A stretch of DNA of 64,000 nt from Sphagnum compactum (Eukaryota). Under the pieces are notes generated by a model. It searched no databases, was not told where the DNA came from, and worked only from the letters and a program-made list of their open reading frames with translations. Within the stretch, counting starts at the first letter, position 1, and every line of letters starts with the position of its first letter. Location of the stretch: the NCBI GenBank assembly GCA_965153455.1, contig OZ234493.1:20326213-20390212 (forward strand). Reading direction: 5' to 3'. A program made the position numbers and the translations under genes. Positions 6,413-48,712 of the stretch are shown here, in pieces.

Positions 6413-7556
6413 TCACTCTTTCGCGAAAACTTCGTTCAATGCGGAGCTCGTTGTCAGGGAGGCTCTCAAAAGCTGCAAAGCCTGCGATACCCAAGACAAT
6501 TCCATTTCATGAACCGCCATAAGGTTCTTACTTGTAAACGGCTTGTTCACAAATGGGTTCCGGAACTTTGGAGATGCAACGATATGCGTAGTTATCAGAC
6601 CTAGCTCTCATTCATCGTCACAAGAACGGTAGAGCCTCACCTTCGCAGTTCATCAAGAGTCAGTATCCGCAAGTGCAGAGGAAGATCTAAGCTGGCATGC
6701 TCTGTAGACAGAGACGCGTGAGACTCTACCTGGGTGACGCCTACTGCGATTTCCAGGCTGTCGAGGTCGCTCATGTTCTCAACTTTGAGCTTATTGAGAA
6801 GCACAATGCTCTTAATGGTGGAGGTTGGGTATATTTCCATATCGTCAGTAATCATATAAGTCGTGTTTTCCTTCACGTAACCAGCTCCTGCAGGTTTAGA
6901 CTCAAGTTCCGTAGACAACGATTCTTGGGATGCAGTAAGTGCGCTAGTCATCGGATATTTGCATCTTGGACAAAGATCACCGAGGTTCCTTGTCATGATA
7001 ATTCGATTGCCAGGACTCGTACAAGAACGAAAGTTGCTGCATATGTAATATGTCGTTGGGTCCGACTCGGCACCCTGAATCCGCAGAAGTGAGCTTGCAC
7101 GATAGCCCCATGCAGGTTGCGGGCTCAGTAGAATGTCCTTGCAGCCAATATTCATGAAACTAGCGTTGAGATTGTCGACGCTTTTGAAAATGTGAGATAG
7201 CTCCCACAGGCCATTCGTCCAAACCTGAACTAAGGTTGCAGCATTAGCACCGGAACGAGTACAAGAGCAAGCCGTCAAGCGGTTGCTGAACGAATCCGGA
7301 CCATAGCATGCTATGTAGGTTGCAACAAATTACTTTGCAGCTTCGTACCTTGAGAGATAAGTTTTATAACTGCTCCAGTAGGCAGCATGAGAAAGCTAAA
7401 AAGCATGTCGACAAAATCCTTGCCAGCCTCCATGTACAGCACCCGCTTGGTGGATTTCTGCACCAGCAGTTGCACTCGAACCAAATCCGCATGGTGTTGC
7501 GCTGATTCACATGACTTTGGTACCACAACTGGTGGTGCTCCTGGTTTTGTACCCAT
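6413..7556 (-). CDS. DUF674-family protein, 3 exons (7556-7349, ~7224/7229-6730, 6481-6413), possible frameshift near 7190
   Basis: Family motifs: LLVQKSTKRVLYMEAGKDFVDMLFSFLMLPTGAVIKL, FKSVDNL, GYVKENTTYMITDDMEIYPTSTIKSIVLLNKL and terminal ALQLLRASLTTSSALNEVF. Introns are GT-AG. Confidence 0.85.
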
Positions 7557-15580: not shown

Positions 15581-18500
15581 AGCGACATCTTCTAGATGGA
15601 GCCGGTTTGTTAGGATATCGTTGGTGAAACCGATTAATTAAGTCTTGGGCATGAACTAGGTTTCCAGCAAGCTCCCAAGTAGCTTCAGAAGGAGGATAAC
15701 CTCGCCAAAAGACAAGGTACAGGAGTTTCCACGAATCTTCTTGGAGTCCAAGACCTCCTGAACTTCAAACTCTTCTTGGCCTTCAATTTCGACTGGAGCT
15801 GGGGGTTCTTGATGACGTTCTGGGATCGGGTTTTCATGATAGGGCTCAAGCAGGGAGACATGGAAAACATTGTGGATTTTGAACTGGGGTGGAAGCTCCA
15901 ACTGGCAAGCCACTAGACCAACCAATTTGGCGATTTTGAAAGGTCCGAGGCGCTTGTAATCCAACTTGGCACATGGGCGGGTGGTAGTACTGTTCTTTCT
16001 GAGAAGCCAGACCTTGTCTCCAACCTTGAAGTTTGGATGGTCCTTGCGTCAGCGGTCTGCTTGCTTCTTTTGCCACTCCTGTGTTAGCTTGAGTTCTGCC
16101 ATAAGGTTCTGTTGAACCTGTCCAAGCCTCGTGGCCCTTTCTTCAGCCGAGGGGTTTACGGAGTCTCCAGGAATTTCAAGGCTGAACCTGGGATGAAAAC
16201 CGTAATTGGCAAAGAATGGACTGATCCCAGTCGATGCATGTGTTGTGTTATTGTAAGCAAACTCTACTTGAGATAGTAGGTCCAGCCAGTCGTCCTGTTG
16301 GTAGTTCACAGTGCAGCGAAGGTATTGCTCGAGTGTCTGGTTTGTCCGTTCGGTTTGTCCATCTGTCTCAGGGTGGAAAGCTGAAGATAGCCGAATGTCA
16401 ACTCCAAGAAGCTCGAATAGACGATGCCAGAACTTGGATGCAAACTGAGGACCTCTGTCGGACACAATTTCCTCGGGGAGTCCATGCAGTCGGACGATCC
16501 CGTCCAGAATTAACTGAGCTGTCTCTTCTGCCGTGATTGACTTGGAACAAGGGGTGAAATGGGCCATTTTGGTGAGTCGATCGACCACAACCAGTATTGA
16601 ATTCTTGGTTCTGACAGTAGGGAGGTCCGTGATGAAGTCCATTGCAATAGATCCCCAAGGTCGGCTAGGAATCGACAGAGGCTGTAGGAGTCCAAACGGG
16701 CGATGCCTGGGAGCCTTGGATCGAGCACATGTATCACAAGACTTGACATACTCCCGTAGCATCTTGTTCATTTTGGGCCACCAGTAAGTCCTTGACACTA
16801 GTTCGTGAGTCCGTGCCATTCCAAAGTGACCTGCCAGGGTGTTGTCGTGGCATTCCCTCAGGATTTTTAGGCGTATAGGTCCTTCGGGTACATAAATCAG
16901 GTTATTTCGAAGGAGAAGTCCGTCTTGCTGCTCAAATTGATCCAAGTCATCACGATTTGGGTTCCTTGGTCGTTCCTGGAGTTCCTTCTTGATGTTGGTA
17001 GCCCAGGTGTCTTCCTCAGTTGCTATCTTGATGTCCCTGACAAGGTATGAGTCTGGGAGGGTGCTGATTGTTGCTGCAACTCGAAATTGCTTGGGGTTGA
17101 GTAAAGTCTGGTTCTGCTGGCCGTAGGCCTCATCCCCCGCTCGAAGTTCATATTCTGAACGATGAGATAGCGCGTCAGCTTTCCCTTGCTGGGTGCCAGG
17201 TTGATACTGAATCTCAAAGTCGAAATCAGCTAGGAAGATAGACCAGCGTGCCTGGCGACGATTTAAGGTCCGAGTAGTTGTGAAATAAAGGAGATTCTTG
17301 TGATCTGTCAGAACTTGGACTCGATGTTGAGCTCCTGCAAGATACGGTCTCCACTGCTCGAATGCCGTGATGATTGCCAGGAGTTCCTTATCGTAGACCT
17401 GGTAGTTGATTTCGGCACTGGTTAACTTCCGTGAATAGAAAGCAACTGGATGCAGCAACCCATCTATTCCAAATTGAGATAGAATAGCTCCCAAGGCAAA
17501 ATCTGAAGCGTCCGTTTCCACAATGAATGGCTTGGTAGGATCGGGATGTATCAGGATGGGTGCAGAGGTGAATGCCATCTTGAGAGTATCAAAAGCAACC
17601 TGGGCCGTTGGATTCCACGAGAAGGGCTTGTCTTTGCAAGTCAGGGGTATTAACGGTGTTGTGATCTTGGAATAGCCTTTGATAAACCGACGATAGAAGT
17701 TGGCAAACCCTAGGAAGCGTTGAACGTCCTTGACCGAGGATGGAATAGCCCAACACTGGATGGTCTCGACCTTTGACTTGTCCATGAAAATGCCATCTGG
17801 AGAGATCACGTAGCCGAGGAACGCCACTGAAGATTTGTCGAATTCACATTTTTCCAACTTGGCGTATAAGCCATGCTCCCGCAGCGTCGCAAGCACCAAT
17901 CGTACATGTTTGTCGTGGGTTTCCTGGTCCTTGGAAAAGATTAAAATGTCATCCAAATAGACCACGACAAATTCGTCCATGTAATCCCGGAAAATATCAT
18001 TCATCAGATGCTGAAAGACTGCGAGTGCATTGGTGAGGCCGAAGGGCATGACCGTGTATTCGAAGTGGCCATAGCGTGTGCGGAAAGCTGTCTTCCATTC
18101 ATCACCAGGGCGAATCCTGAGTAAGTTGTAGGCTCCACGGAGGTCAAGCTTGGTGAAGATCTTCCCGGTACGTAGTCGATCTAGGAGACCTGAAATCAAG
18201 GGCAAAGGATATCGATTCTTTTTTGTTATCTTGTTGAGTCCACGATAATCCACACAAAGTCCAAGGGAGCCATCCTTCTTCTTGACAAACAAAATTGGGG
18301 CGCCGGCTGGAGACTTGGAATGCTGAATGAACCCCTTGGCAAGATTTTCAATAAGGTAATCACGCAGGGCTTGGAGTTCCGGTTCCGATAGGCCATAGAT
18401 AGGACCAAAGGGTGGTGAGTGTCCTCCTAGATCAATCGGGCAGTCATATGGACTATGGGCGGGGAGCTGATCAGCATTAATCTTTTCAAAAATATCAACA

Positions 18501-19321
18501 AAGTCCTTGTACTTCTTGGGAAGTTTGACAGGTGTTGGTTCCGATTGGGGGTTTGTGGTGTTGGCTGGGTTGACATGGATGGCGAAGACTTGAAGATTCT
18601 TAGCAGCCCGATAGAAAGGGACAGCTCTATCAACGAAGATCTGGACAGGGTTGGTTTTTTGGGCAGAATTCTTGACAAGATTCTTGACAGGACAAGGTTT
18701 CGTTCTGACCAATCGGGGGTTCTTGACTGCAAGATTTGACATAACAGACTTGATAAAACTGGAATTGGTTCCGACCCTCTTTGGGTTCTCGACCACAGGG
18801 TTCTTGGCAGGACTGGACAAAGTGTTTTTCTGAGCGTGAGGTTCTTGAGAGGTGCATCGTTGTGCGCTGAAGGTGAGGGTTCTAGATCGCCAATCAATGA
18901 TAGGGTTGTGTGCTTCTAGCCAAGGCAGACCAAGGATGATGGGATGGTGAGGGGTGGAAATGATGTTGAGAACAATCTTCTCCATGTGCTTGCCGATACA
19001 GAGTTCTAGAGGGGTTGTCTCGTGTGTGATTGCACCAGAAGCAATGGTTCTCCCATCAATAACCTCTACCGGAACAGGGGTTGACTTCTTGACCACAGGG
19101 ATGTTGTGTTGGACGACAAATGTTTGGTCGATGAAAGAAGAGGTGGCGCCGGAGTCCACCAAAGCTGACACTTATGGTATGTCTTCTGGAATACGAATGA
19201 TGTCCACATACTGAGTGAAACTGGGACTGGGACCAACAGCGGAACAGGAGCCTTTGCAAAGGTGGTGTTGGGTGAGATCCAGTCGCACGGCTCCTACTGT
19301 GACTGGATGTTCTTGTTTTCC
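15567..19321 (-). pseudogene. pol: pol polyprotein (protease, RT, RNase H, integrase, chromodomain) with two in-frame stops and one frameshift
   Basis: Motifs: ALVDSGA (PR), YLDD (RT), ETDASDF and TDHKNL (RH), H..GH..CDTC zinc finger, MDF, SDRG and GQTER (IN), GPF, and chromodomain FEVQEVLDS...LYLVFWRGY...ATWE. Lesions: TAA at 19172-19174, TGA at 16049-16051 and a 1-nt deletion near 15727. Confidence 0.93.
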
Positions 19322-20268
19322 AACTCCTGGGGAGTTTCCACAGCTTGTACCTGAAGTTTGACAAGCTTTTGAGGGCATTGACGAGCTATATGCCCTGAGT
19401 TGCCACAGTAAAGACATAGATTGTTTGTCCTTCGGCGAAGTTTCTCGACTTCTGTCAAAGATTTAAACTTAGCTGTGTCGATCTGCATCGGAGCAGGTCC
19501 AAAAGAGGCAGGTCGGGCAACTGGTGTTGTTTGGGGAACTAAGGGGAGCGTAATAGGCCGACTGTTCCAAAGCTGGGCGTTGGAGGTGACTTTCTTTTCC
19601 TGGCGATGTTCGAACAGACGATTATCGCACCGAATTGCCTGGGTGATGGCTTCACTGAAGGAAGAAGAGTCTGCGAGTGTCAACAAAAGATCTTGAACAT
19701 CATCACGAAGCCCACAGCGAAACTGATCAATCAAGGCAGCTTCTCCCCAATTGACGTCACAGGCAAGCTGCCTGAATTCTGAAGTGTAGACGATGGCCGA
19801 ACGTGTCCCTTGCTGGAGGCGACGCAGCTTGTTGGCTAAAGTCCTGGCCTTATCACTGTCCCCAAATACTGCTTCAAATTCCGCCATAAAGGCGTTGAAA
19901 TCTTGTAGAAGAGGGGATGATGTTTCCAGGATGGGAGCAAACCATGCTGCAGCTGTCCCAGTGAGTAGGGTTCCAACGAATCCTACACGAGTGGTGTCAT
20001 CAAAATAACGACGGGGGTGTAGTTGCATGATCAGGCGTACCTGGCTGACAAAGCCTCGAAATTTGAGGCGCGTTCCATCAAACTTTTCTGGCAGACTGAT
20101 CTTGAGTTCTTGGGCGGCCATTGCAAGAACAGGAAGTACTGGGGCAGGAGGTGGTGGCTGATTCTGTAGGCGGGTCACCGAGTCTCTAAGCACGGCATTT
20201 TCTTGTTGAAGGTGTTGAAGGGCGGCGAGGATTTGAGTGAGATCGATGTTGGATTCTGAGTTGTCCAT
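19294..20268 (-). CDS. gag: Retrotransposon Gag (PEG10/sushi-like) with a CCHC zinc knuckle
   Basis: Open frame with the ATG in ACCACCATGG context. Motifs PEKFDG, LRRLQQG, FRCGL, PMQID and CLYCGNSGHIARQC. Confidence 0.92.
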   Translation of the reverse strand: MDNSESNIDLTQILAALQHLQQENAVLRDSVTRLQNQPPPPAPVLPVLAMAAQELKISLPEKFDGTRLKFRGFVSQVRLIMQLHPRRYFDDTTRVGFVGTLLTGTAAAWFAPILETSSPLLQDFNAFMAEFEAVFGDSDKARTLANKLRRLQQGTRSAIVYTSEFRQLACDVNWGEAALIDQFRCGLRDDVQDLLLTLADSSSFSEAITQAIRCDNRLFEHRQEKKVTSNAQLWNSRPITLPLVPQTTPVARPASFGPAPMQIDTAKFKSLTEVEKLRRRTNNLCLYCGNSGHIARQCPQKLVKLQVQAVETPQELENKNIQSQ

Positions 20269-20306
20269 GGTGGTAGTTCTCACACTTTTGCGCTTTCAAT
20301 CTTCAA

Positions 20307-38269: not shown

Positions 38270-41200
38270 AATATGGCAAATTCAGATGGCCTCAAGGGAA
38301 AAGGAGTTGATCTTTCACAAGGGCCACCAGAAAGAAAGAGAGATGTTGGGCGGATCCCTGCTGGGATTGAGACACCTTTGGTCCCCGCTGAAAATGCTCC
38401 TTCAAGCTCTGGATGTCACAGCCATGTGGTGCTTCTTCTTGATCTTATCATGAGCTTTCTTTGCACTGTTTTTTCTTGGGCTTTCCCATGTAAAGATGTT
38501 ATGCAGATACCTGCTGCGATTGAGACACCTTTGGTCCCCACTGAAAATGCTCCTTCAAGCTCTGGATGGCACAGCAATGTGGTGCTTCTTCTTGACCTTA
38601 TGATAAGCTTTCTTTGCACAGTTTTTTCTTGGGTTTTCCCAAGTGACATGTTGAAGTTTGATTTTTCTTTGCTTTTTTTATTTTGTTTGGGTGTTGACAA
38701 TTGACCCTTACAACCATGATAACTTATTGTCCTCACAAAGTATCAGGAGAAGGAGGTCTAGTTCAGAGTTGAATTCCCAACCAACAGCTTTGCAACCATA
38801 CCTTTTAGCCACTAGGGTACCCGAACGTCCCCAATCATTTACAAGCTTCCTTGTCATACATTTTTACTTTGGATACTTTCTAGTTTGGTTGTTTACATAA
38901 AAACAATATGAAATGATGTTTAAAACAATACGAAATGGAGTCATCATTATAGCCTCTTACATTAGGCTAGGGACTCATTTGCTATAAGAAGTAGAATTGG
39001 TGAAAGGGAAATTCGTCAAAATTTGGCATTGACTAAGAATATATTGAACTTGTAAGGATTGGAACTTTCATTATAGATTATGAGTTAAGTTCAATGTGTA
39101 GTCTTGATCCAACAACCTAAAACAAATTATTAAAATGCTCTTGGACATTCTTATAAGGTTTGTGTCCCGATTCCTTAGCCATTGGAGGCCTTAGAGGTCC
39201 AAATGTTGGGGAAAATGTCATGAAATGCAAATGAACCAAACTAGATGGCTAAGCAAATCATCGCAAACTTGAAAGAATCCAATTCTTAGCATTAACCTTT
39301 ATTGTTTGGCATACGTTCCACCTACTATCTAACAACATTTACTTATTGAACTATGTTTTGACACTTTGAGGTCTATGACACATGTGAATGATCTTCATTT
39401 GTTAATCATGCAAGATAGATTTGGTATTCTCCAATTCATTTATTATTATGATCGTGTAAATTTAATATTTTCAACTAATTATTACTTTTATCTAACTACT
39501 ATAATTTGTATATTGCATTTTTCTTATTTCATGTATAGTCAAATAATTTCCAAGAGACGTTTGAAGAATTGTGTTGACACTTTTTCATTTTCTTTGCAGA
39601 AATATCCAGTGCATGATTTAAATCCCACTTGCAATTCCAATAATCCAAACTTGACCATCGTTTTTTTTCATGGGATTGTTTTTGGCACAAATGATGAATG
39701 GAAGGAAACATGGACAACACGCCCCACCAACAATAGAAAAGAGTGCATATGTTGGCCAGAAAAGTGGCTACCCGAAGACTTGAACAACAATGTTCGAATT
39801 TTATCATTGTCCTATGATTCTAACATTGTGGCAAGTGTTCACAATGATGTGACTGAAATTGGCAAAAACCTCATTCAAAGTTTGGTTACAAATTCAAGGT
39901 GTGACAATCTCCTCTATTTATGGACACATTAATTACTTCTCCTTGTGTGCAATAAAGATCATTGTTTACATCTTTAGAATTTCTTAAATGTTTTACATGA
40001 GTTAATTGTTCATGTGTGCTAGTATTGTGATACACACCAACAAGTTTCAATTTACTTGAATTGTTAAATTTCATGTAGGAGAACATAAAATGGGTCTTAA
40101 ATGCAAATGTTATTGTTTGAAGATAATAGCAAAGTCTATGTTCATATTATAAGTTCATGGTACAACTAGTTTGGTTTTTATGGCAATTTTTAGTTCGCGT
40201 TTTTTGAAGCTTTATCTTTGGTAATGCAATTGAATTGAATTGAATTGATTAATACATTTGTTGAAACTTTACATCCATTTCATTGCAAAAACCTTATTTT
40301 TTAAAAAAGGTTTTTTTTGTAATTTATATTTTATAAATTTTCAACTATATTTCTAAGGTAACACATAGAAGATGAGTTGTACATTAACACAAGAATGTAA
40401 ACACCTACATACTTGTGCATAATAATTGTTTTATCAAAACATGGTTGTCACATTTTTTAGGTAGATTAATGGAGTCAATAAACGAAATATGACATATGAC
40501 AAGCAAATCAATTATGAACTTATGGCTTAGGTCATGTGTGAATTGAAAAATTGCCCCCAAGTATAATAGGATAAATTTGTACATGCTAATACAATGTTGA
40601 TAATGGAATTTTGGTGCATTGTGGAATATTTTGTAGTTATCAATCCCTTTGGGACGGACCGGTGGCATTAGTTGCTTATAGTTTTGGAGGTCTTGTACTC
40701 AAAAGCTTAGTGGTTGAAGCTCACAAACGTGTATATCAAAGGCCAAAAAATGGTTTGGATGATGAAGTACACAAATGTTGTAAAACATTTTTGAACAATG
40801 TCAAAGGTGTAATATTTTATGGTGTACCACATTTTGGTGGTACCCAATATTTATCAAAATATTTCACTTGGCAATGTCAGCAAATCAACACGTTCAACAA
40901 ATATGCAACCCAACCTAGTTTTTCAAAAAATTTAAAACCTTTCAACCTACAAATGGAGTACCTTTCAAAGGATTTTTAAAATGCCATTCATGCAGACCTC
41001 AACATTTATGCATTTGGTGAAGGATTACCAATTGACAAAAATTCAGTAAGATTTTCATTTCACCACACTAAAAGTTATCCAACTAGGTTCATTAGTTGAA
41101 CATTTTTTGTGTTGTCAAAACTTGTGTGGGATCATGTACTCAATACTTCTGAATATATTAATGTGGTGAATGGGTCATATGTTTTATGAATTTTGTTTCA

Positions 41201-44200
41201 TGAATTACTATTGATGGAAATGAAATTTGATTGATTTCAAACATCAAGAAATAGGTTTAAATTTTCCCTTCATCAAATCAATTCCATATAAATATTTGTA
41301 GGAAAATCATAACATCGTTAAAACATATAAGATTCATGAGATGAAAAACCAATAACTTTGTGATGTATTCATATAAGTTGTTTGCCAAAGGGTTCAAGGA
41401 AATTACTTGTACACAATATTTCATTATTATTCAAACATCAATAGTTATTAAGCTATAGTTTCCACCACCATTTGGCTCATAAGTTAAAACATAAGTGAAC
41501 AAACAAGTCAATGAGTTACATTAATTTAATTTTTTGCACATGCAGGGAATTTTAGTGCCATATGCTTCAGCTATTCAATTGTCAAACAACAACCAATATA
41601 GAATAGAGGATGCTAATCATTTGACAATTTGCAAGCCACCAAACAAGGATCATCCAAGCTATTATTTATTATTACAATGTTTGAAAATATGTATGAAGGT
41701 AAAAACATCAAATTTAAGTCTTTTGATTTCATATGTGTTCATGTAATTTGAAACACATTCAGTCACAGCACATTTGATGTGTTTTGCATATGCAATGTCA
41801 AATATATTGATTATCAAATAAGAAAGATAACATATAAAATGACCTCTATTTTGTGAATTTTAACAGAAAAATATATTGCTTCCACGTTTGCCATGTCATG
41901 AGGTGGCGTTGATTGACAAAGCACGAGACATAAACATCTTGTTACAAAAGCAATCTATTGTTGGTTTGGTTGGAATGGGTGGGATTGGGAAGACCACTTT
42001 GTGTAAAAAATTCTATCATTTGTTCCACAACCAATATGACAAATCTAGTTTTTTGGAGGATGTGAAATCAAAGGACAATATCAATGATGTCATTAAACAA
42101 CTCCTACAGGATTTGTGTGGCAAAAGGTTATGCAAGGATGAAAATGTGAATGAAGACCTTGACAAAATTAGACAATGTATGATATCGAAGAAAGTGTTAG
42201 TGGTGGTGGATGATGTTGGTAAGGCGGAGAACCTTACATCCTTGCAACTTCTTGTTGAAAAGGGTGCCAAGAATGCAACTTCTAAAAGCAGAGTACTTGT
42301 GAATTGTCGAAATTGGCAAATTCTAAAATCTCATGTAAGTGAGGATGGAAAAATGGTCATGAAATCTTTGGAAGAAGAGGAAGCAAGAAAACTTTTTATG
42401 CTCCATGCATTCGGTACTACGAATCATGTTCCAACAAAGGATTTCAAAAATATATGTATGAAGATTATAAAAGCTTGTGGGGGCCTCCCTTTAAGTCTTA
42501 AAGTATTGGGTTCTTTTTTGTGTAATACAAAAGAATTAAAAATGTGGGAAGGTGCATTGAGCAAATTGAAAAGTGGGAAAAGTTTGACAGGGGGCAATGA
42601 TAATGAAGAGCTTTGGAATGTTTTAAAGATTTCTTATGAGGACTTGGATAAAGAAAATCAAAACATGTTTTTGGATATTGCTTGTTTTTTTGGTGGTTTG
42701 AAAATAAGTACAATTTGTCGAGCGTGGAGTGGAGATTATGAACACCCAAAGTTTGAATTACAAAATTTACAACATAGATCTTTAGTTGACTGGGCAGAAA
42801 ATGGAATCTTGTACATACATGAACAATTACGAGACATGGGTCAAAGTATTGCAATGGAACTTCCAATTATGAATCGACTTATATGGAAATCAAATAAGTC
42901 AAATTTATCTTTACGAAAAGATGAAGTTGTCACCATACTATTTCGATCCTATAATTTTATTTTTATTTTTTATGAGTTTTTAAATGTCCAAAACCAAATG
43001 TTTTAATTTTGAATATTAATTTTATAAAAAAAAAATCTAATAAAAATTGGCATTAGGATGATTTTTTAAAAATATTGATAATCCTTTTTGTTTTCATTTC
43101 ATGTGATAGGTGGTGGAAAATTTAGAAGGCATCTCATTGAAAAAATGCGTCAATTTGCCTACATTGTCCCAAATCGGCTCAAAGGGATTTCCCAATCTTA
43201 GGTTGCTTGACCTAACAGAAGCTTCACCAACTATAGTGAAAAATTTCATCCAAGGGCGAAATTTGAATAACGTTAAGTGGTTGTGCCTCAAAAAATGCAT
43301 GATTCAAAAATTACCAAGTAATTTGTTTTATTGTTTACAATTACAAGTACTTGATTTAGCACAATGCCAAAGTTTGGAAGAAATACCTTCATCTATTGGC
43401 GAATTGAATGCACTCCAAGAGCTTGATTTCAATGGATGTTCCGAGTTGAAAGAACTACCTTCATCTATTGGCCAATTGAATGCACTCCAAAACCTTGATT
43501 TGAAATGTTGTTCCGAGTTGAAAGAACTACCTTCATTTATTGGCCAATTGAATGCACTTCAAGAGCTTGATTTGTCAAACTGTTACAACTTGAAAGAACT
43601 ACCTTCATCTATTGGCCAATTGAATGCACTTCAAAAGCTTAATTTATCATGGTGTTCCGAGTTGAAAGAACTACCTTCATCTATTGGCCAATTGAATGCA
43701 CTCCAAAACCTTGATTTGTCAAGGTGTTCCAACTTGAAAGAACTACCTTCATCTATTGGCCAATTGAATGCACTCCAAAACCTTGGTTTGTCACAGTGTT
43801 CCAACTTGAAAGAACTACCTTCATTTATTGGCCAATTGAATGCACTCCAAAACCTTGATTTGTCACGGTGTTCCAACTTGAAAGAACTACCTTCGTCTAT
43901 TGGCCAATTGCATACATTCCAAGAGCTTGATTTGTCAGGGTGTTACAACTTGAAAGAACTACCTTCATCTATTGGCCAATTGAATGCACTCCAAAAGCTT
44001 GATTTGTCAGGGTGTCGCAATTTGAAAGAACTACCTTCATCTATAGGCCAATTGAATAGACTCCAAAACCTTGATTTGTCAACGTGTTACAAGTTGAAAG
44101 AATTACCTTCGTCTATTGGCCAATTGAATGCACTCCAAAACCTTGATTTGAAATGGTGTTCCGAGTTGAAAGAACTACCTTCGTCTATTGGCCAATTGCA

Positions 44201-46674
44201 TACACTCCAAGAGCTTGATTTGTCAGAGTTCTGCAAGTTGAAAGAACTACCTTCATCTATTGGCCAATTGAATGCACTTCAAAAGCTTGATTTGTCAAAG
44301 TGTTGCAACTTGAAAGAACTACTTTCATCTATTGGCCAATTTAATGCACTTCAAAAGCTTAATTTATCATGGTGTTCCATGTTGATAGAACTACCTTCAT
44401 CTATTGGCCAATTGAATGCACTCCAAAACCTTGATTTGTCAGGGTGTTCTAACTTGAAAGAACTACCTTCATCTATTGGCCAATTGAATGCACTCCAAAA
44501 CCTTGATTTGTTAGGGTGTTTCAACTTGAAAGAATTACCTTCATCTATTGGCTAATTGAATGCACTCCAAAACCTTGATTTGTCAGGGTGTTCCAACTTG
44601 AAAGAACTACCTTCATCTATAGGCCAATTGAATGCACTCCAAAACCTTGATTTGAAATGTTGTTCCGAGTTGAAAGAACTACCTTCATCTATTGGCCAAT
44701 TACATACACTCAAAAAGCTTGATTTGTCACGGTGTTGCAACTTGAAAGAACTACTTTCATCTATTGGCCAATTGAATGCACTCCAAAACCTTGATTTGTC
44801 AAGGTGTTCCGAGTTGAAAGAATTACCTTCGTCTATTGGCCAATTGAATGCACTCCAAAAGTTTAACTTGGAAAGGTGTTTTCAGTTGAAAGAACTACCT
44901 TCATCTATTGGCCAATTGAATGCACTTCAAGAGCTTGATTTGTCATGGTGTTACAACTTGAAAGAATTACCTTCATCTATTGGCCAATTGAATGCACTTC
45001 AAAAGCTTAATTTATCATGGTGTTCCGAGTTGAAAGAACTACCTTCATCTATTGGCCAATTGAATGCACTCCAAAACCTTGGTTTGTCAGGGTGTTCCAA
45101 CTTGAAAGAACTACCTTCATCTATTGGCCAATTGAATGCACTCCAAAACCTCGGTTTGTCACGGTGTTCCAACTTGAAAGAACTACCTTCATCTATTGGC
45201 CAATTGAATGCACTCCAAAACCTTGATTTGAAATGGTGTTCCGAGTTGAAAGAACTACCTTCGTCTATTGGCCAATTGCATACATTCCAAGAGCTTGATT
45301 TGTCAGGGTGTTGCAACTTGAAAGAACTACCTTCATCTATTGGCCAATTGAATGCACTCCAAAAGCTTGATTTGTCAGGGTGTTCCAATTTGAAAGAACT
45401 ACCTTCATCTATTGGCCAATTGAATGCACTCCAAAACCTTGATTTGTTAGAGTGTTCCAACTTGAAAGGACTACCTTCATCTATTGGCGAATTGAATGCA
45501 CTCCAAAAGCTTAATTTATCATGGTGTTTCGACTTGAAAGAACTACCTTCATCTATTGACCAATTGAATGCACTCTAAAGCTTAATTTATCATGGTGTTT
45601 CGACTTGAAAGAATTACTTTCATCTATTGGCCAATTGAAGGCACTCCCAATCCTTAATTTGTCAGGGTGTTCTGAGTTGAAAGAACTACCTTCATCTATT
45701 GGCCAATTGAATGCACTCCAAAACCTTGATTTGTTAGGGTGTTGCAAGTTGAAAGAATTACCTTCATCTATTGGCCAATTGGATGCACTCCAAAACCTTG
45801 ATTTATCATTGTGTTCCGAGTTGAAAGAACTACCTTCGTCTATTGGCCAATTGCATACACTCCAAAAGCTTGATTTGTCAGGGTGTTGCACCTTGAAAGA
45901 ACTACCTTCATCTATTGGCCAATTGAATGCACTCCAAAAGCTTGATTTGTCAGGGTGTTCCGAGTTGAAAGAACTACCTTCATCTATTGGCCAATTGAAT
46001 GCACTCCAAAACCTTGATTTGTCAGGGTGTTGCAACTTGAAAGGACTACCTTCATCTATTGACGAATTGAATGCACTCCAAAAGCTTAATTTATCATGGT
46101 GTTTCGACTTGAAAGAACTACCTTCATCTATCGACCAATTGAATGCACTCTAAAGCTTAATTTATCATGGTGTTTCGACTTGAAAGAACTACTTTCATCT
46201 ATTGGCCAATTGAAGGCACTCCCAATCCTTAATTTGTCAGGGTGTTCTGAGTTGAAAGAACTACCTTCATCTATTGGCCAATTGAATGCACTCCAAAACC
46301 TTGATTTGTCAGGGTGTTGCAACTTGAAAGAACTACCTTCATCTATTGGCCAATTGAATGCACTCTAAAACCTTGATTTGAGAGGGTGTTCCGAGTTGAA
46401 AGAATTACCTTCGTCTATTGGCCAATTGAATGTAGTCCAAAAGTTTAATTTGGAAAGGTGTTTCAAGTTGAAAGAACTACCTTCATCTGTTGGCCAATTG
46501 AATGCACTCCAAGACCTTGATTTGAAAGGGTGTTCTGAGTGGAAAGAACTACTTTCATCTATTGGTCAATTGAATGCACTTCAAAAGTTTAATTTGAAAG
46601 GATGGTCGAACTTGAAAGAACTACCTTCATCTATTGACCAATTGAATACACTTCAAAAGTTTGATTTGTATTAG
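38270..46674 (+). pseudogene. Alpha/beta-hydrolase-NB-ARC-LRR immune receptor (HNL), disrupted. Exons: uncertain 5' exon(s) from ~38270, then 39600-39898, 40637-41045, 41546-41698, 41867-42925 and 43110 onward
   Basis: Hydrolase motifs: IVFFHG, WPEKWLPEDL, RILSLSYDS, VAYSFGGLV, FYGVPHFG, DANHLTICK. NB-ARC motifs: GMGGIGKTT, LVVVDDV, CGGLPL, FLDIACF, IHEQLRDMG. 24-aa LRRs follow. Lesions: TAA at 40977, TAA at 44553, frameshifts near 45576 and 46151, TAA at 46366. Confidence 0.92.
38341..38646 (+). repeat. Two tandem copies of a 153-bp (51-codon) unit in the putative first exon of the HNL
   Basis: GATTGAGACACCTTTGGTCCCC recurs 153 bp apart. The unit encodes IPA.IETPLVP.ENAPSSSG.HS.VVLLLDL..SFLCTVFSW.FP. 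Confidence 0.85.
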
Positions 46675-47305
46675 TGTTTCAACTTGAAATAACTAACTTC
46701 ATCTATTGGCGAATCGATGTACTCCAAGAACTTGATTTGTCAAGGTGGGCCAAGTTGAAAGAATTACCTTCATCTATTGGCCAATCAATGTACTCGAAAA
46801 ATTTAATTTGTCAAGGTGTGCCAACTTGAAAGAACTACTTTCATCTATTGGTGAATTGAATGCATTTCAAAAGCTTTATTTATAAAACTTTTCCAACTTG
46901 AAAGCATTGTGAAAAAAGTACATTCATGTATGGGTGAATTGAATGCATTCAAAGTGTTTTATTTGTCAAGGTCTTCCAACTTGAAATAAGTATTTTCATC
47001 TATTGGTCAATTGGGTACATTTCAAAAGTTTCATTTGTCAAAGTATTCTAACTTGAAAAAACCATTTTCATCTATTGGTCATTGAATGCACTTGAAAATT
47101 TTGATTTGTGTGAACGTTTCAACTTGCAAAAATTACTTACATGTACATTGGTCAATTAAATGCAGTCCAAAAGTTTTAGTTGTGTGAGCTTAATTTGTAC
47201 AAGCTTGCAGGAATTACTTACGATTATAGTCTGATTTAATGCATTCAAGGAACTTAATTTGTTAAGGTGTTTCAATTTGAAATAATTACCTTCATCTATT
47301 GCCAA
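43345..47305 (+). repeat. Tandem array of 72-bp LRR-coding units (~47 clear units plus ~8 degenerate 3' units)
   Basis: The near-invariant core TTGAAAGAACTACCTTCATCTATTGGCCAATTGAATGCACTCCAA repeats with a 72-bp period. Confidence 0.97.
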
Positions 47306-48712
47306 GTAAATCACTAATATAAAACCCCTCTTTTTCAACCAACCCACCTTTGACTTGACATTATCTTCGACTATGTTTCAATTGTAAGTTTTTGAATCTT
47401 TAAAAACATTATTCACAATTGCCAAGTAAATTGAGTTGCCTACTCTTTTGGTGGACAAATGAAGGCGAATCCCAACTATTTTGGAGTTCATGGAATATTC
47501 TTAGCACCCCCATGGTCTACAATTAAATTGTAGTTGAATTCTAGTCAAGCATCTCGGGGTGGTGTGTCCTATGTTCAACTATTTTGGTCAATTACAAAAA
47601 ATAGTGATGGATGATAGATCACACATGGATAGATGACATTGAGATTGGGATTAATGTTTTTGTTGCAAGTGCACATCGGGACTATCTTTTGACTATAACC
47701 TACAAGTTGAAAGGCAAAAAATGAATGTTGGGCACTTTTGCATACTATGTCGACACCTCAATTGCAAGTGCTACTTAGTAAGCATGACAACAACCATTGT
47801 GCCATGCTCTATAAACATTGGTATATATGCATGGTTCTAGTTTTAAGAAACAAATATTTATTGAGGTTGTCAAAGCCAACAAACCCATAATGATGAAAAT
47901 ATGTTCCTTCTCTTTGAAAGACCCTAATAATTAGATTTTGAAAACTATCAAGTTAATTGATGATTTGTCGAAAACATTCAAATCCTAAGTTCCATGATAG
48001 ATGGTGGGCAAAAATGATTTAGCTTCCAAAACAACATTATTCACATCAGGATGTGACCTTTCACCCAACTCCTTATTAAAAGAAATTTGGCAGTGAGAAA
48101 AGTTTCAAGGTTTAGGGTCTTAAAACATTTCTACATTTAGATGACAATTATAAATTAGTACAATTTAGATCAAATTGTAAACACCTATGGATTGTGAAAA
48201 GGCCCAACCAAGCTCATTATGTAATGACCCCATTTGTTATATTCAATTCAAAAGAAATTGAAATTAGTAAACATCGTCAACAAGCCCATGAAACAACCAA
48301 ACAATATTGTTGTGATATCAAAAAGGGGAATATGCCAACTTAACAACTTTGGAATGCTTGAGGTTTTATAGAAAGGATTTTGACATATTAAAATAAGAAC
48401 AATGCCTACCAATTTTGTAAGAGCCACCAAAAGTTCGGTGTGTCTATTTTGCATTTGTAGACCATCTGCATTCTTAATGCACAAAAAGATGTGGCTTAGG
48501 GTATGAACTCTTCACTAAACAGCCTAGTTGTTTCTTCTCTGTCAACTTCATTTTTAAAGTCCACAACCTCCTACCAAAGCTTTAAACCCGAGAACAATGC
48601 TTCTTTCCACATAAGGGGCATTAATTTTCAAGTCTTGTGATCAAGTGAAAATCCCATTGAGCATGAGCTTTTGCACATTTGCTTTTTCTCCTTTCGCATG
48701 TGCAGTAATATT

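What the first reader, a model, noticed from the sequence alone, without database searches (positions are those of the whole stretch)
43345..47305. Giant, DNA-homogenised LRR cassette with hypervariable surface codons in a plant NLR: possible recombination-driven receptor diversification
Seen: about 47 clear and ~8 decaying 72-bp units lie in a single exon. The scaffold (LKELPSSIGQLNALQ) is nearly identical even at synonymous sites. Variation is concentrated in the x positions of xLxLxxCxxL, e.g. SG/SR/SW/KC/KW/LG/ER before Cys and SN/SE/YN/CN/FD after it. Variant half-units (HTF/HTL, KLNLSW, NLDLKW, CSEL) recur in different combinations in distant units. Established: typical angiosperm NLR LRRs are fewer and strongly diverged from each other, whereas high internal repeat identity with hypervariable surface sites is the hallmark of fungal NLRs such as Podospora HET-E WD40 repeats, which diversify by repeat shuffling. 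Inference: this HNL family may generate specificities by unequal crossover or gene conversion among a pool of LRR units, a fungal-like mechanism not well characterised in plants.
Basis: partly seen in the sequence, partly recalled or inferred. Interest (0 to 1): 0.8.

Follow-up and report, generated by a model that had tools for sequence, protein, structure and literature searches.

The report
Dead moss NLR, giant LRR array
This is a broken copy of a peat-moss immune-receptor gene whose sensor domain is a run of 52 near-identical 24-residue repeats, and its relatives show that such runs gain and lose repeats quickly while a few surface positions vary.

Summary
The repeat array is real: 52 head-to-tail 72-bp units (43374-47124), each coding one 24-residue LRR. 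Variation is concentrated in six codons at LRR positions 3, 5, 7, 8, 10 and 11. It is not an intact exon. The gene is a Sphagnum alpha/beta-hydrolase-NB-ARC-LRR (Hyd-NLR/HNL). It carries a TAA in the hydrolase exon (40977-79) and a TAA in unit 17. Units 31 and 39 share one 1-bp deletion, copied by an 8-unit duplication, and further stops follow. This copy is therefore most likely a pseudogene that kept expanding after its frame broke.

The pattern belongs to the whole family. It appears in 38 Sphagnum proteins (393 units) and at least 120 metagenome loci, with arrays of 4-71 units. Two S. jensenii records are identical for 1281 residues and then differ by exactly 11 units. Unequal crossing-over between in-register units is well supported. 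Exchange of units between paralogs is not. Positive selection at the surface codons is only suggestive.

Comparably regular arrays occur in some angiosperm TNLs (TAO1-like), so the contrast with angiosperms is overstated. I rate this an extreme, apparently undescribed variant of a known kind. Interest is moderate.

The parts
38273..38428 (+). Exon 1 (N-terminal leader) of the Hyd-NLR gene. Its 3' part and the start of the intron are tandemly duplicated (38341-38491 and 38494-38644).
   Evidence: tblastn of P0002 and P0015; direct repeat of 151 nt at 91%.
39600..39896 (+). Exon 2, first part of the alpha/beta-hydrolase domain.
   Evidence: 98% identical to P0002 residues 53-151.
40635..41042 (+). 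Exon 3, hydrolase part carrying the AYSFGG nucleophile-elbow-like motif. It is interrupted by an in-frame stop.
   Evidence: tblastn. Weak DUF676 match on the paralog P0002: 19.7 bits against a cut-off of 20.3.
40977..40979 (+). Premature TAA where relatives have Lys (KDF*NAIHA against KDFKNAIHA).
   Evidence: In public contigs position 40977 reads A in all depth of three runs and in 412 of 450 depth of a fourth.
41546..41700 (+). Exon 4, the linker between hydrolase and NB-ARC. The 3' boundary is approximate.
   Evidence: tblastn alignment with a gap over the intron.
41870..42931 (+). Exon 5: NB-ARC plus Roq1-like winged helix, in an open frame. The 5' boundary is approximate.
   Evidence: Pfam NB-ARC 2.1e-35 and WHD_ROQ1 4.5e-10. 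Closest solved chain is Roq1 at 2.5e-39.
43110..43373 (+). Start of the last exon: irregular N-terminal LRRs and cap before the array.
   Evidence: 94% identical to P0002 residues 691-800. Part of the AlphaFold2 model.
43374..46683 (+). Units u01-u46 of the 72-bp LRR array. The frame is open only through u16.
44553..44555 (+). First in-array stop (CAA to TAA, unit 17).
45534..45604 (+). Unit 31, 71 bp, carrying a frame-shifting 1-bp deletion.
46109..46179 (+). Unit 39, 71 bp, with the same lesion as unit 31. It was copied by the 8-unit (575-bp) duplication.
45102..46379 (+). Pair of duplicated blocks: 45102-45804 and 45677-46379, lag 575 bp, 96.0% over 703 bp. Units 30-32 and 38-40 differ by 1 nt each.
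43516..45447 (+). Span holding the older duplicated pair: 43516-44079 and 44884-45447, lag 19 units, 96.3% over 564 bp.
46684..47315 (+). Degenerate terminal units (u47-u52 and a remnant). They are homologous to the terminal and post-stop units of paralogous arrays.
47125..48100 (+). About 1 kb of 3' flank that is conserved in the family.
   Evidence: 84-91% identity to at least 12 metagenome loci over 0.7-1.3 kb.

Best explanation
The region is the LRR-coding last exon of a Sphagnum alpha/beta-hydrolase-NB-ARC-LRR immune-receptor gene (Hyd-NLR, also called HNL). It consists of 52 tandem 72-bp units, and each unit codes one 24-residue LRR of the TNL type (LxxLxLxxCxxLxxLPxSIGxLxx).

The array was built, and is still being remodelled, by in-register unequal crossing-over or replication slippage between units. 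These events duplicate or delete blocks of 1 to about 19 units.

This particular copy is a recently inactivated pseudogene. It has a nonsense codon in the hydrolase exon, a nonsense codon in unit 17, and a 1-bp deletion that was later copied together with eight units. At least eight units were therefore added after the reading frame was lost.

The contrast between a conserved scaffold and six variable codons is inherited from functional ancestors and shared by the whole family. The scaffold forms the hydrophobic core and the convex-side helix and is under purifying selection. The six variable codons lie on and just after the beta-strand of the concave face, and they evolve at or above the neutral rate.

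Shown: the anatomy, the breaks, the block duplications, the family-wide pattern, and differences in unit number between near-identical relatives. Inferred: that the breaks are real rather than assembly errors, that the surface variation is adaptive, and that it sets ligand specificity.
For: ARRAY AND VARIABLE CODONS.

GENE IDENTITY.
- Pfam NB-ARC scores 2.1e-35, with WHD_ROQ1 and several LRR families also matched.
- The best 69 of the 120 listed homologues are Sphagnum proteins (one of them an unnamed JGI record). Identity on the NB-ARC exon reaches 95%.
- Exon-by-exon tblastn to P0002 recovers the gene structure.
- PF05057 (DUF676 esterase) is listed for some members.
- The class is described for Sphagnum in passages of PMC11218826.

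BREAKS.
- TAA at 40977-79. Public contigs mostly read A at 40977, which gives Lys. One contig of run X7 (depth 37.6 of 450) appears to keep T.
- Stops and 71-bp units lie within the array.

EXPANSION AFTER INACTIVATION. Units 31 and 39 share the same deletion, and units 30-32 and 38-40 differ by 1 nt each.

FAMILY PATTERN.
- In 38 proteins (393 units) entropy is highest at LRR positions 3, 5, 7 and 8, then 10 and 11.
- Scaffold positions 13 and 17 are uniform within a protein but differ between subfamilies: entropy 0.62 and 0.15 within, against 1.75 and 1.44 overall.

TURNOVER OF UNITS.
- P0227 and P0230 are identical for 1281 residues, then differ by 264 residues, which is 11 units.
- Four of the eight 90%-identity clusters I tabulated as like-for-like differ in unit number, and one more differs in content (a ninth, c2, mixes two gene ids and was set aside).
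- L111 and L041 have 50 and 49 units, 45 of 48 aligned units identical, and 100% identical 600-bp flanks.
- L013 and L050 have 23 and 2 unmatched units respectively.
- Blocks of 6 and 4 units are duplicated inside arrays that are mostly in frame.

SELECTION.
- Scaffold dN/dS is 0.47, the same as the NB-ARC exon (0.093/0.196).
- dN at the x codons is 0.46, about 4 times scaffold dS (bootstrap range 3.1-5.6).

STRUCTURE. The AlphaFold2 model has pLDDT 89.6. A strand falls at unit codons 16-18 and a helix at codons 6-10 in every repeat.
Against: - Every break rests on one assembly. I could not lay reads on the array, and the pieces laid on the unique part were roughly 100-nt contigs from a multi-copy family.
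- The reading that one X7 contig keeps the stop comes from depth arithmetic, not from seeing the letter.
- The NB-ARC exon and the first 16 units are intact, so a shortened product is not excluded.
- Evidence for positive selection is weak outside the window. Median x dS in 70 arrays is 0.54 against x dN 0.46. Among close unit pairs xN/xS is 0.75 over all arrays and 1.22 in mostly in-frame arrays.
- Scaffold dS within arrays (median 0.146) is about the same as between arrays (0.154), and not far below NB-ARC dS between paralogs (0.196). 'Homogenisation' is therefore mild, and the units may simply be young.
- The metagenome arrays come from assemblies of unknown quality. In-register chimeric joins would keep the frame open, so their lengths and open frames are not proof.
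- The 90%-identity clusters may mix orthologues, alleles and close paralogs.
Confidence: 0.75

Rival explanations
1. The gene still works in a shortened form. The array stop at unit 17 sets a 16-LRR receptor, as family proteins commonly end inside the array. The hydrolase-exon TAA would be an assembly error, a rare allele, or bypassed (for example by an NB-ARC-LRR product from a downstream start). The 36 units after the stop would be untranslated sequence that can still recombine with the translated part.
For: - The NB-ARC exon is open and 93-95% identical to annotated proteins.
- 12 of 38 family proteins end in out-of-frame unit text, and the rest end inside a unit. No conserved C-terminal domain is present.
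- Several arrays share a stop made by a frame-shifted terminal unit (...CPNLKNYLHLLTN*).
- Units after the stop show no more scaffold change than units before it: dN/dS 0.47 against 0.46.
Against: - The TAA at 40977-79 lies 65 nt upstream of the exon-3 donor, in a domain that is conserved in all relatives.
- The window holds five further frame-breaking lesions before the family's usual end of the ORF.
- No protein from this locus appears in the protein collection.
- The family's native stop corresponds to about units 49-50 here, not unit 17.
Confidence: 0.12
2. The array, or its length and lesions, is an assembly artefact of a hard-to-assemble tandem repeat.
For: - Tandem repeats of 72 bp are error-prone in assembly.
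- No run in the index held more than 0.46 of the sampled words of the unique gene part, so I could not find the source reads.
Against: - 43 of the 44 clean units are distinct sequences, with about 9 differences per pair, so the array is not a low-information repeat.
- The duplicated blocks are 96% identical, not 100%.
- Independent assemblies hold arrays of the same kind and size: 32 in-frame units in an annotated S. jensenii protein, and 46-71 units in ten metagenome loci.
Confidence: 0.06
3. The array is a neutral, satellite-like expansion with no adaptive meaning. The surface 'hypervariability' would only reflect weaker constraint at six codons, and differences in unit number would be neutral length polymorphism.
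For: - Family-wide, synonymous and nonsynonymous change at the x codons are about equal.
- The array kept growing after inactivation.
- 25 of the 36 complete arrays have under 80% of their units in frame.
Against: - Scaffold codons are under purifying selection in the same units (dN/dS about 0.5).
- The variable codons are exactly the exposed strand and loop positions.
- In arrays that are mostly in frame, xN/scaffold-S is 1.8 and xN/xS is 1.2.
- Arrays up to 66-68 units remain open, with the caveat about assembly quality.
Confidence: 0.2

Closest known systems
Bryophyte hydrolase-type NLRs (HNL of Xue et al. 2012, PMC3352924, search listing only; Hyd-NLR of Chia et al. 2024, PMC11218826, passages read)
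   Same: [quoted passage not shown] Sphagnum Hyd-NLRs are named explicitly in PMC11218826. The window's gene is 77-95% identical to annotated Sphagnum members on the NB-ARC exon.
   Different: This copy is broken. The passages I read in those papers deal with N-terminal domains and NB-ARC phylogeny. They do not describe tandem, near-identical LRR units, array length or unit-number variation. Supplementary files were not seen.
Fungal NLRs with highly internally conserved repeats (HET-E/HET-D/HET-R and the NWD family; PMC4986451 and PMC2873952, passages read)
   Same: - A STAND/NLR protein whose C-terminal sensor is a tandem array of near-identical repeats.
- Variation sits at a few positions on the binding surface.
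- Repeat number changes between close relatives.
- Block duplications point to in-register recombination.
   Different: - The repeats are LRRs, not WD40, ANK or TPR.
- Internal identity is lower: 0.77 at the amino-acid level and 0.87 at the nucleotide level here, against the cut-off of over 85% used for fungi.
- Exchange of repeats between paralogs, shown in Podospora, was not detected.
- Positive selection is not firmly shown.
- No link to allorecognition is known.
Angiosperm and gymnosperm TNLs with long regular LRR arrays, for example proteins named 'TAO1' in Eutrema, Capsella and Raphanus, and relatives in Morus, Camelina, Populus, Eucalyptus and Pinus
   Same: The same 24-residue cassette (LxLxxCxxLxELPSSIGNLxxL), 40-60% identical to the window's array over 384 residues. 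They hold 14-33 such units with mean unit identity 0.65-0.74 and variation at the same positions.
   Different: They carry a TIR domain, not a hydrolase. Only protein sequences were seen, so DNA-level identity and copy-number variation were not tested. TNLs picked by NB-ARC similarity alone score 0.27-0.44, so these are the exception among angiosperm TNLs.
Classical cases of intragenic unequal crossing-over in plant LRR resistance genes (flax L/M, Arabidopsis RPP5, tomato Cf-2/Cf-5). These are recalled, not checked here. The general statement appears in PMC3782705 (passages read).
   Same: Gain and loss of LRR units by unequal exchange, with diversifying selection on exposed xxLxLxx residues.
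   Different: As I recall them, those cases involve a few larger or alternating repeats. Here there are tens of single 72-bp units, across a family of more than 100 loci.
Lamprey variable lymphocyte receptors (mentioned in PMC2873952, passage read; other details recalled)
   Same: Diversity is generated by recombining LRR cassettes.
   Different: VLR assembly is somatic and copies from flanking cassette banks. Nothing here suggests somatic rearrangement.

Membership tests
Plant NLR, hydrolase class (Hyd-NLR / HNL) | Central NB-ARC domain | tested here: met
   PF00931 at 2.1e-35, 122.6 bits against a cut-off of 23.5. Closest solved chain is Roq1 at 2.5e-39.
Plant NLR, hydrolase class (Hyd-NLR / HNL) | C-terminal leucine-rich repeats | tested here: met
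   LRR_14 at 1.3e-71 and LRR_13 (RPS4B-like) at 3.7e-41. The model is a regular solenoid with pLDDT 89.6. Foldseek matches LRR proteins including RPP1.
Plant NLR, hydrolase class (Hyd-NLR / HNL) | N-terminal alpha/beta-hydrolase domain | tested here: inconclusive
   - The window's exon pieces gave no Pfam hit.
- The paralog P0002 scores 19.7 bits on DUF676, just under the 20.3 cut-off.
- PF05057 is precomputed for some members.
- JGI names some fragments 'esterase/lipase (alpha/beta hydrolase family)'.
- An AYSFGG motif is present.
- No fold was predicted for this domain.
Plant NLR, hydrolase class (Hyd-NLR / HNL) | Intact reading frame (a working member) | tested here: not met
   TAA at 40977-79. 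Stops and 1-bp deletions occur from unit 17 onward.
NLRs with highly internally conserved repeats (fungal HET-E/NWD type) | Repeats with very high internal identity (over 85% in PMC4986451) | tested here: inconclusive
   Nucleotide identity is 0.872 and amino-acid identity 0.77 in the window. Family proteins range from 0.67 to 0.88.
NLRs with highly internally conserved repeats (fungal HET-E/NWD type) | Positive selection at a few positions on the binding surface | tested here: inconclusive
   - The positions are the exposed ones.
- Window dN/dS is 2.4, bootstrap range 1.6-5.0.
- Over 70 arrays, x dN is 0.46 against x dS 0.54.
- Among close unit pairs the ratio is 0.75-1.22, and 1.5-1.8 when measured against scaffold dS.
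NLRs with highly internally conserved repeats (fungal HET-E/NWD type) | Repeat-number polymorphism between alleles or close relatives | tested here: met
   Met for the family, not for this locus. P0227 and P0230 differ by 11 units after 1281 identical residues. L111 and L041 have 50 and 49 units with identical flanks. No second copy of the window's own locus was available.
NLRs with highly internally conserved repeats (fungal HET-E/NWD type) | Exchange of repeats between paralogous genes | tested here: not met
   Only 1 of 32 window surface signatures occurs among 393 family units, against 3.2 expected. No fetched array is collinear with the window's. This is weak as a negative, because the sample of paralogs is partial.
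NLRs with highly internally conserved repeats (fungal HET-E/NWD type) | WD40, ANK or TPR repeats | tested here: not met
   The repeats are LRRs. PMC4986451 reports that no LRR was found in fungal NLRs.
TIR-NB-LRR (TNL) | N-terminal TIR domain | tested here: not met
   No TIR hit in the window's exons or in P0002. The NB-ARC, winged helix and LRR are of the TNL type.

The most novel reading that the evidence does not exclude
Sphagnum Hyd-NLRs may be a plant counterpart of the fungal NLRs with highly conserved repeats. On this reading the family has well over 100 loci. Their sensor domains are tandem arrays of 4 to about 70 near-identical 24-residue LRR cassettes. The arrays gain and lose cassettes by in-register recombination on the time-scale of species and even individuals. 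Recognition specificity is written in six surface codons per cassette. Dead arrays, and the out-of-frame tails found at many loci, stay recombination-competent and could serve as a reservoir of cassettes.
Probability: 0.25. Interest if true: 0.75.

Novelty: new variant of a known kind. Interest (0 to 1): 0.5.

Why it matters
How NLR repertoires create new specificities is mostly known from angiosperms. There, LRRs are irregular and change mainly by point mutation and exchange between paralogs. A moss NLR family whose sensor is a long array of interchangeable cassettes would show that the repeat-shuffling route described for fungi is also used with LRRs in land plants.

It would also offer a simple system for study. 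Units are 72 bp, six codons carry the variation, and the plants are haploid. Rates of unit gain and loss could be measured directly, and specificity could be engineered by swapping cassettes.

For annotation, the practical lesson is that many family members end inside the array or are pseudogenes. Protein-based NLR censuses in Sphagnum will therefore misjudge LRR length.

The window's own locus matters mainly as an example. It shows that the expansion mechanism does not need selection.

Tried and rejected
- Whole-genome search of the window's own assembly: no genome is held. Paralogs in the same genome could not be compared.
- Earlier findings of this scan: nothing by place, sequence or words.
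- Reads. No run held more than 0.46 of the sampled words. The four runs laid gave only roughly 100-nt contigs from many paralogs. They cannot show depth, expression or the state of this locus. Spliced RNA contigs (joint 38580>39599 with GT..AG; exon 2/3 junction at 39898 with a paralog's Asn) show only that the family is transcribed. I did not send the array itself, because the tool turns away long repeats.
- PHI-type test for recombination within units: not significant (p = 0.19-0.54).
- Four-gamete incompatibility: 181 of 465 site pairs are incompatible. I rejected this as proof, because so many scaffold sites vary among the 44 units that I judged repeated hits at single sites plausible; this was a rough mental estimate, not a computed figure.
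- Sharing of unit surface signatures with paralogs: none beyond chance.
- Search for an orthologous array among the 120 metagenome loci: none. Aligned units differ by 9-11 nt, like random pairs.
- Third protein search, with a 1730-residue open array from L013: of the 120 proteins listed, no Sphagnum protein covered more than 38% of the query. Open arrays of more than 32 units are therefore attested only in metagenome contigs.
- dN/dS above 1 at the x codons as a family-wide rule: rejected.
- Long antisense ORFs in the array (44999-45574 and 45553-46149, minus strand): by-products of a repeat that happens to lack stops in that frame.
- Literature searches. No listed title or abstract start describes near-identical tandem LRR units in bryophyte NLRs. 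Only listings and the passages named elsewhere in this report were read, and no supplements.
Full report
1. THE OBSERVATION

Tandem Repeats Finder reports one array at 43374-47108 with period 72, 51.8 copies and 84% matches. I anchored on the conserved start of the unit and split the array into 52 units, u01 at 43374 to u52 at 47124. A last remnant lies at 47234-47315. No second copy of the gene or of the array lies in the window.

Of units u01-u46, 44 are exactly 72 bp. Among these, 43 are distinct sequences. Mean pairwise nucleotide identity is 0.872. It is 0.934 in the 18 scaffold codons and 0.687 in six variable codons.

Amino-acid entropy is 1.1-2.5 bits at unit codons 16, 18, 20, 21, 23 and 24, and at most 0.92 bits elsewhere. 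In the usual LRR register (L1xxL4xL6xxC9xxL12) these are positions 3, 5, 7, 8, 10 and 11.

An AlphaFold2 model of the pre-LRR part plus the first 16 units is a regular solenoid with pLDDT 89.6. Its beta-strand falls on unit codons 16-18 and its short helix on codons 6-10 (PSSIG) in every repeat. The variable codons therefore lie on and just after the concave-face strand, and the scaffold forms the core and the convex side.

The array is not one open exon. The frame that enters from 43110 closes at a TAA in unit 17 (44553-55). Units 31 and 39 are 71 bp long. Unit 42 has a TAA, unit 46 a TAG, units 47 and 48 are 71 bp, and unit 49 is 83 bp.

Upstream, an exon-by-exon comparison with the closest annotated proteins recovers five exons. 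These are the leader, two hydrolase exons, a linker and the NB-ARC exon. The comparison shows an in-frame TAA at 40977-79, where relatives have Lys.

In public contigs laid on the unique part of the gene, position 40977 reads A. That holds for all depth of three runs and for 412 of 450 depth in a fourth. By depth arithmetic, the remaining 37.6 matches one contig that would keep T. These contigs are about 100 nt long and come from many paralogs, so this is a hint and nothing more.

The NB-ARC exon is open and 93-95% identical to annotated proteins. The damage is therefore recent.

3. WHAT THE GENE IS

Pfam finds NB-ARC (2.1e-35), a Roq1-like winged helix and TNL-type LRR families. The closest solved NB-ARC is Roq1.

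The best 69 of 120 listed homologues are Sphagnum proteins, from S. compactum, fallax, jensenii, tenellum, balticum and troendelagicum, plus one unnamed JGI record. The window is therefore from a peat moss, not an angiosperm.

The N-terminal domain carries an AYSFGG motif. Its paralog P0002 scores just under the DUF676 esterase cut-off, at 19.7 against 20.3 bits. PF05057 is on record for some members. This matches the hydrolase-type NLR class (HNL, Hyd-NLR). Chia et al. 2024 name that class for Sphagnum (PMC11218826, passages read).

4. HOW THE ARRAY GREW

Unit-to-unit distances dip at lags of 8 and 19 units. Two long off-diagonal matches explain this:
- 45102-45804 against 45677-46379, 703 bp at 96.0%, lag 575 bp.
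- 43516-44079 against 44884-45447, 564 bp at 96.3%.

Units 30-32 and 38-40 differ by one nucleotide each, and units 31 and 39 carry the same 1-bp deletion. The eight-unit duplication therefore happened after the frame was lost. The mechanism that builds the array does not depend on selection.

These block duplications also account for most of the 'variant half-units recurring in distant units'.

A PHI-type test for mosaicism inside units is not significant. The many four-gamete incompatibilities (181 of 465 site pairs) cannot be told apart from repeated mutation at this level of divergence.

5. THE PATTERN BELONGS TO THE FAMILY

In 38 Sphagnum proteins with at least six full units (393 units), entropy is highest at positions 3, 5, 7 and 8, then 10 and 11. 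Positions 12-24 are almost invariant.

Two scaffold positions (13 and 17) differ between subfamilies but are uniform within a protein. Entropy is 0.62 and 0.15 within proteins, against 1.75 and 1.44 overall. This fits arrays that expanded or were homogenised after the subfamilies split.

Twelve of the 38 proteins end in out-of-frame unit text, and the others end inside a unit. There is no conserved C-terminal domain.

In these loci the arrays hold 2 to 71 detected units.

Of 62 arrays whose start is present (61 loci plus the window), 36 also have the 3' flank. Their sizes run from 4 to 71 units, so the window's 52 is large but not the largest. Eleven of the 36 have at least 80% of their units in frame, with up to 66 and 68 in-frame units. 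A few of these loci are the same locus seen twice.

Several arrays share a stop made by a frame-shifted terminal unit (...CPNLKNYLHLLTN*), followed by degenerate units. The window's u47-u52 are the counterpart of those. The 'decaying' end is therefore ancestral.

Caveat: these are metagenome assemblies. A chimeric join in register would keep a frame open, so their lengths and open frames are not proof. In annotated genomes the longest array I saw has 32 in-frame units (P0230). A search with a 1730-residue open array found no longer Sphagnum protein among the 120 listed.

6. TURNOVER OF UNITS BETWEEN CLOSE RELATIVES

Within clusters at 90% identity:
- Two S. jensenii proteins are identical for their first 1281 residues and then differ by 264 residues, exactly 11 units. 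The shorter one ends in the same out-of-frame tail as the longer one. The difference is therefore a deletion or insertion of 11 units, not a simple frameshift.
- I printed nine clusters. One (c2) mixes two annotated gene ids and I set it aside. Of the other eight, four differ in unit number (c1, c3, c8, c10).
- One has the same number but different surface residues, arranged as a two-unit higher-order repeat in each species (c5).
- Three are identical or nearly so (c4, c6, c9).

At the DNA level:
- L111 and L041 have 100% identical 600-bp flanks and 45 of 48 aligned units identical. L111 has two units where L041 has one fused 73-bp unit.
- L013 and L050 keep positional homology near the 3' end but have 23 and 2 unmatched units.
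- Arrays that are mostly in frame contain duplicated blocks of six and four units.

Some clusters may mix alleles, orthologues and close paralogs.

7. HOMOGENISATION AND SELECTION

Scaffold dS is 0.11 between units of the window. The median within 70 arrays is 0.146, and between arrays it is 0.154. NB-ARC dS between the window and 35 loci has a median of 0.196, with dN 0.093.

Units are therefore young, somewhat younger than the gene duplications. They are not strikingly more alike within an array than between arrays. 'DNA-homogenised' is a mild effect.

Scaffold dN/dS is about 0.5, like the NB-ARC.

At the six variable codons the picture depends on the yardstick:
- In the window dN is 0.46 and dS 0.19, a ratio of 2.4 (bootstrap range 1.6-5.0). 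That dN is about 4 times scaffold dS.
- Across 70 arrays, x dS (0.54) is as high as x dN (0.46).
- Among recently diverged unit pairs, xN/xS is 0.75 for all arrays and 1.22 for mostly in-frame arrays. xN/scaffold-S is 1.5 and 1.8 respectively.

The surface codons evolve at or above the neutral rate. Strong positive selection is not shown.

The window's 32 surface signatures are not shared with the 393 family units beyond chance: 1 found against 3.2 expected. No fetched array is collinear with the window's. I see no sign of a shared pool of units.

8. COMPARISON WITH WHAT IS KNOWN

The closest functional analogy is the fungal NLRs with highly conserved WD40, ANK or TPR repeats. For those, repeat-number polymorphism, surface-directed selection and exchange within and between paralogs are documented (PMC4986451 and PMC2873952, passages read). 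The Sphagnum family shares the first feature, possibly the second, and not, so far, the third. Its repeats are LRRs, which those authors did not find in fungal NLRs.

The same cassette, 40-60% identical over 384 residues, occurs in TNLs of many seed plants. Some hold 22-33 units with mean unit identity 0.65-0.74, against 0.27-0.44 for TNLs chosen by NB-ARC similarity alone and 0.57-0.61 for NLRs of the moss Ceratodon.

Unequal exchange and diversifying selection in plant LRRs are textbook matters (PMC3782705, passages read). The specific examples I have in mind are recalled, not checked.

Seven literature searches listed no paper on near-identical tandem LRR units in bryophyte NLRs. I saw only listings and the passages named above, and no supplements.

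9. VERDICT

The array and its variation pattern are real. The locus is most likely a recently dead Hyd-NLR whose array kept growing.

A shared pool of units and adaptive diversification remain unproven.

I rate this an extreme and apparently undescribed variant of a known kind, of moderate interest. The value lies in the family rather than in this locus.

Noticed in passing
window 38341-38644: Tandem duplication of 151 nt (91% identical, spacing 153) covering the 3' end of exon 1 and the start of intron 1. It is in frame. RNA contigs from relatives splice from 38580, the donor of the second copy.
   Followed up: partly
window 16049-20295 (- strand): Ty3/gypsy-type retrotransposon with open gag (333 aa) and pol (1040 aa) frames. 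The pol frame carries protease, RT, RNase H and integrase.
   Followed up: partly
window 6637-7329 (- strand): A 230-aa open frame with a DUF674 match (1.8e-19), probably an exon of an unrelated plant gene.
   Followed up: no
window 47125-48100; loci L037, L034, L092, L106 and others: About 1 kb just downstream of the array is conserved at 84-91% in many paralogous loci. This is as well conserved as the gene itself. It could be the 3' UTR or another conserved element.
   Followed up: partly
L013, L073, L050, L035 (array ends): Several arrays share the same stop, made by a terminal unit read one base out of frame (...CPNLKNYLHLLTN*), followed by degenerate units. The family's normal C-terminus seems to be a fixed frameshift inside a repeat.
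   Followed up: partly
P0135, P0140, P0148, P0142, P0136, P0174 (proteins): Some seed-plant TNLs (Eutrema 'TAO1', Morus, Camelina, Eucalyptus, Populus, Pinus) have 14-33 very regular 24-residue LRR units with mean unit identity 0.65-0.74. They may deserve the same analysis at the DNA level.
   Followed up: partly
P0102 (Ceratodon purpureus, 1649 aa): A moss protein with DUF676, a ZZ domain, NB-ARC and about 30 cassette-type LRR units (mean unit identity 0.60). Long regular arrays in hydrolase-type NLRs are therefore not confined to Sphagnum.
   Followed up: no
L111 and L041: The same pseudogene locus (stop in unit 3) in two metagenome contigs with identical flanks differs by one unit. Two neighbouring units in one contig correspond to a single fused 73-bp unit in the other.
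   Followed up: yes
P0123, P0125, P0132 and other JGI/ENA proteins: Metagenome proteins annotated only as 'LRR protein', 1166-1278 aa, consist almost wholly of the same cassette. P0123, for example, has 23 units at 0.76 identity with a LKELPTSIDKLTA scaffold. They are probably plant host DNA in metagenomes, called as genes without the NB-ARC.
   Followed up: no
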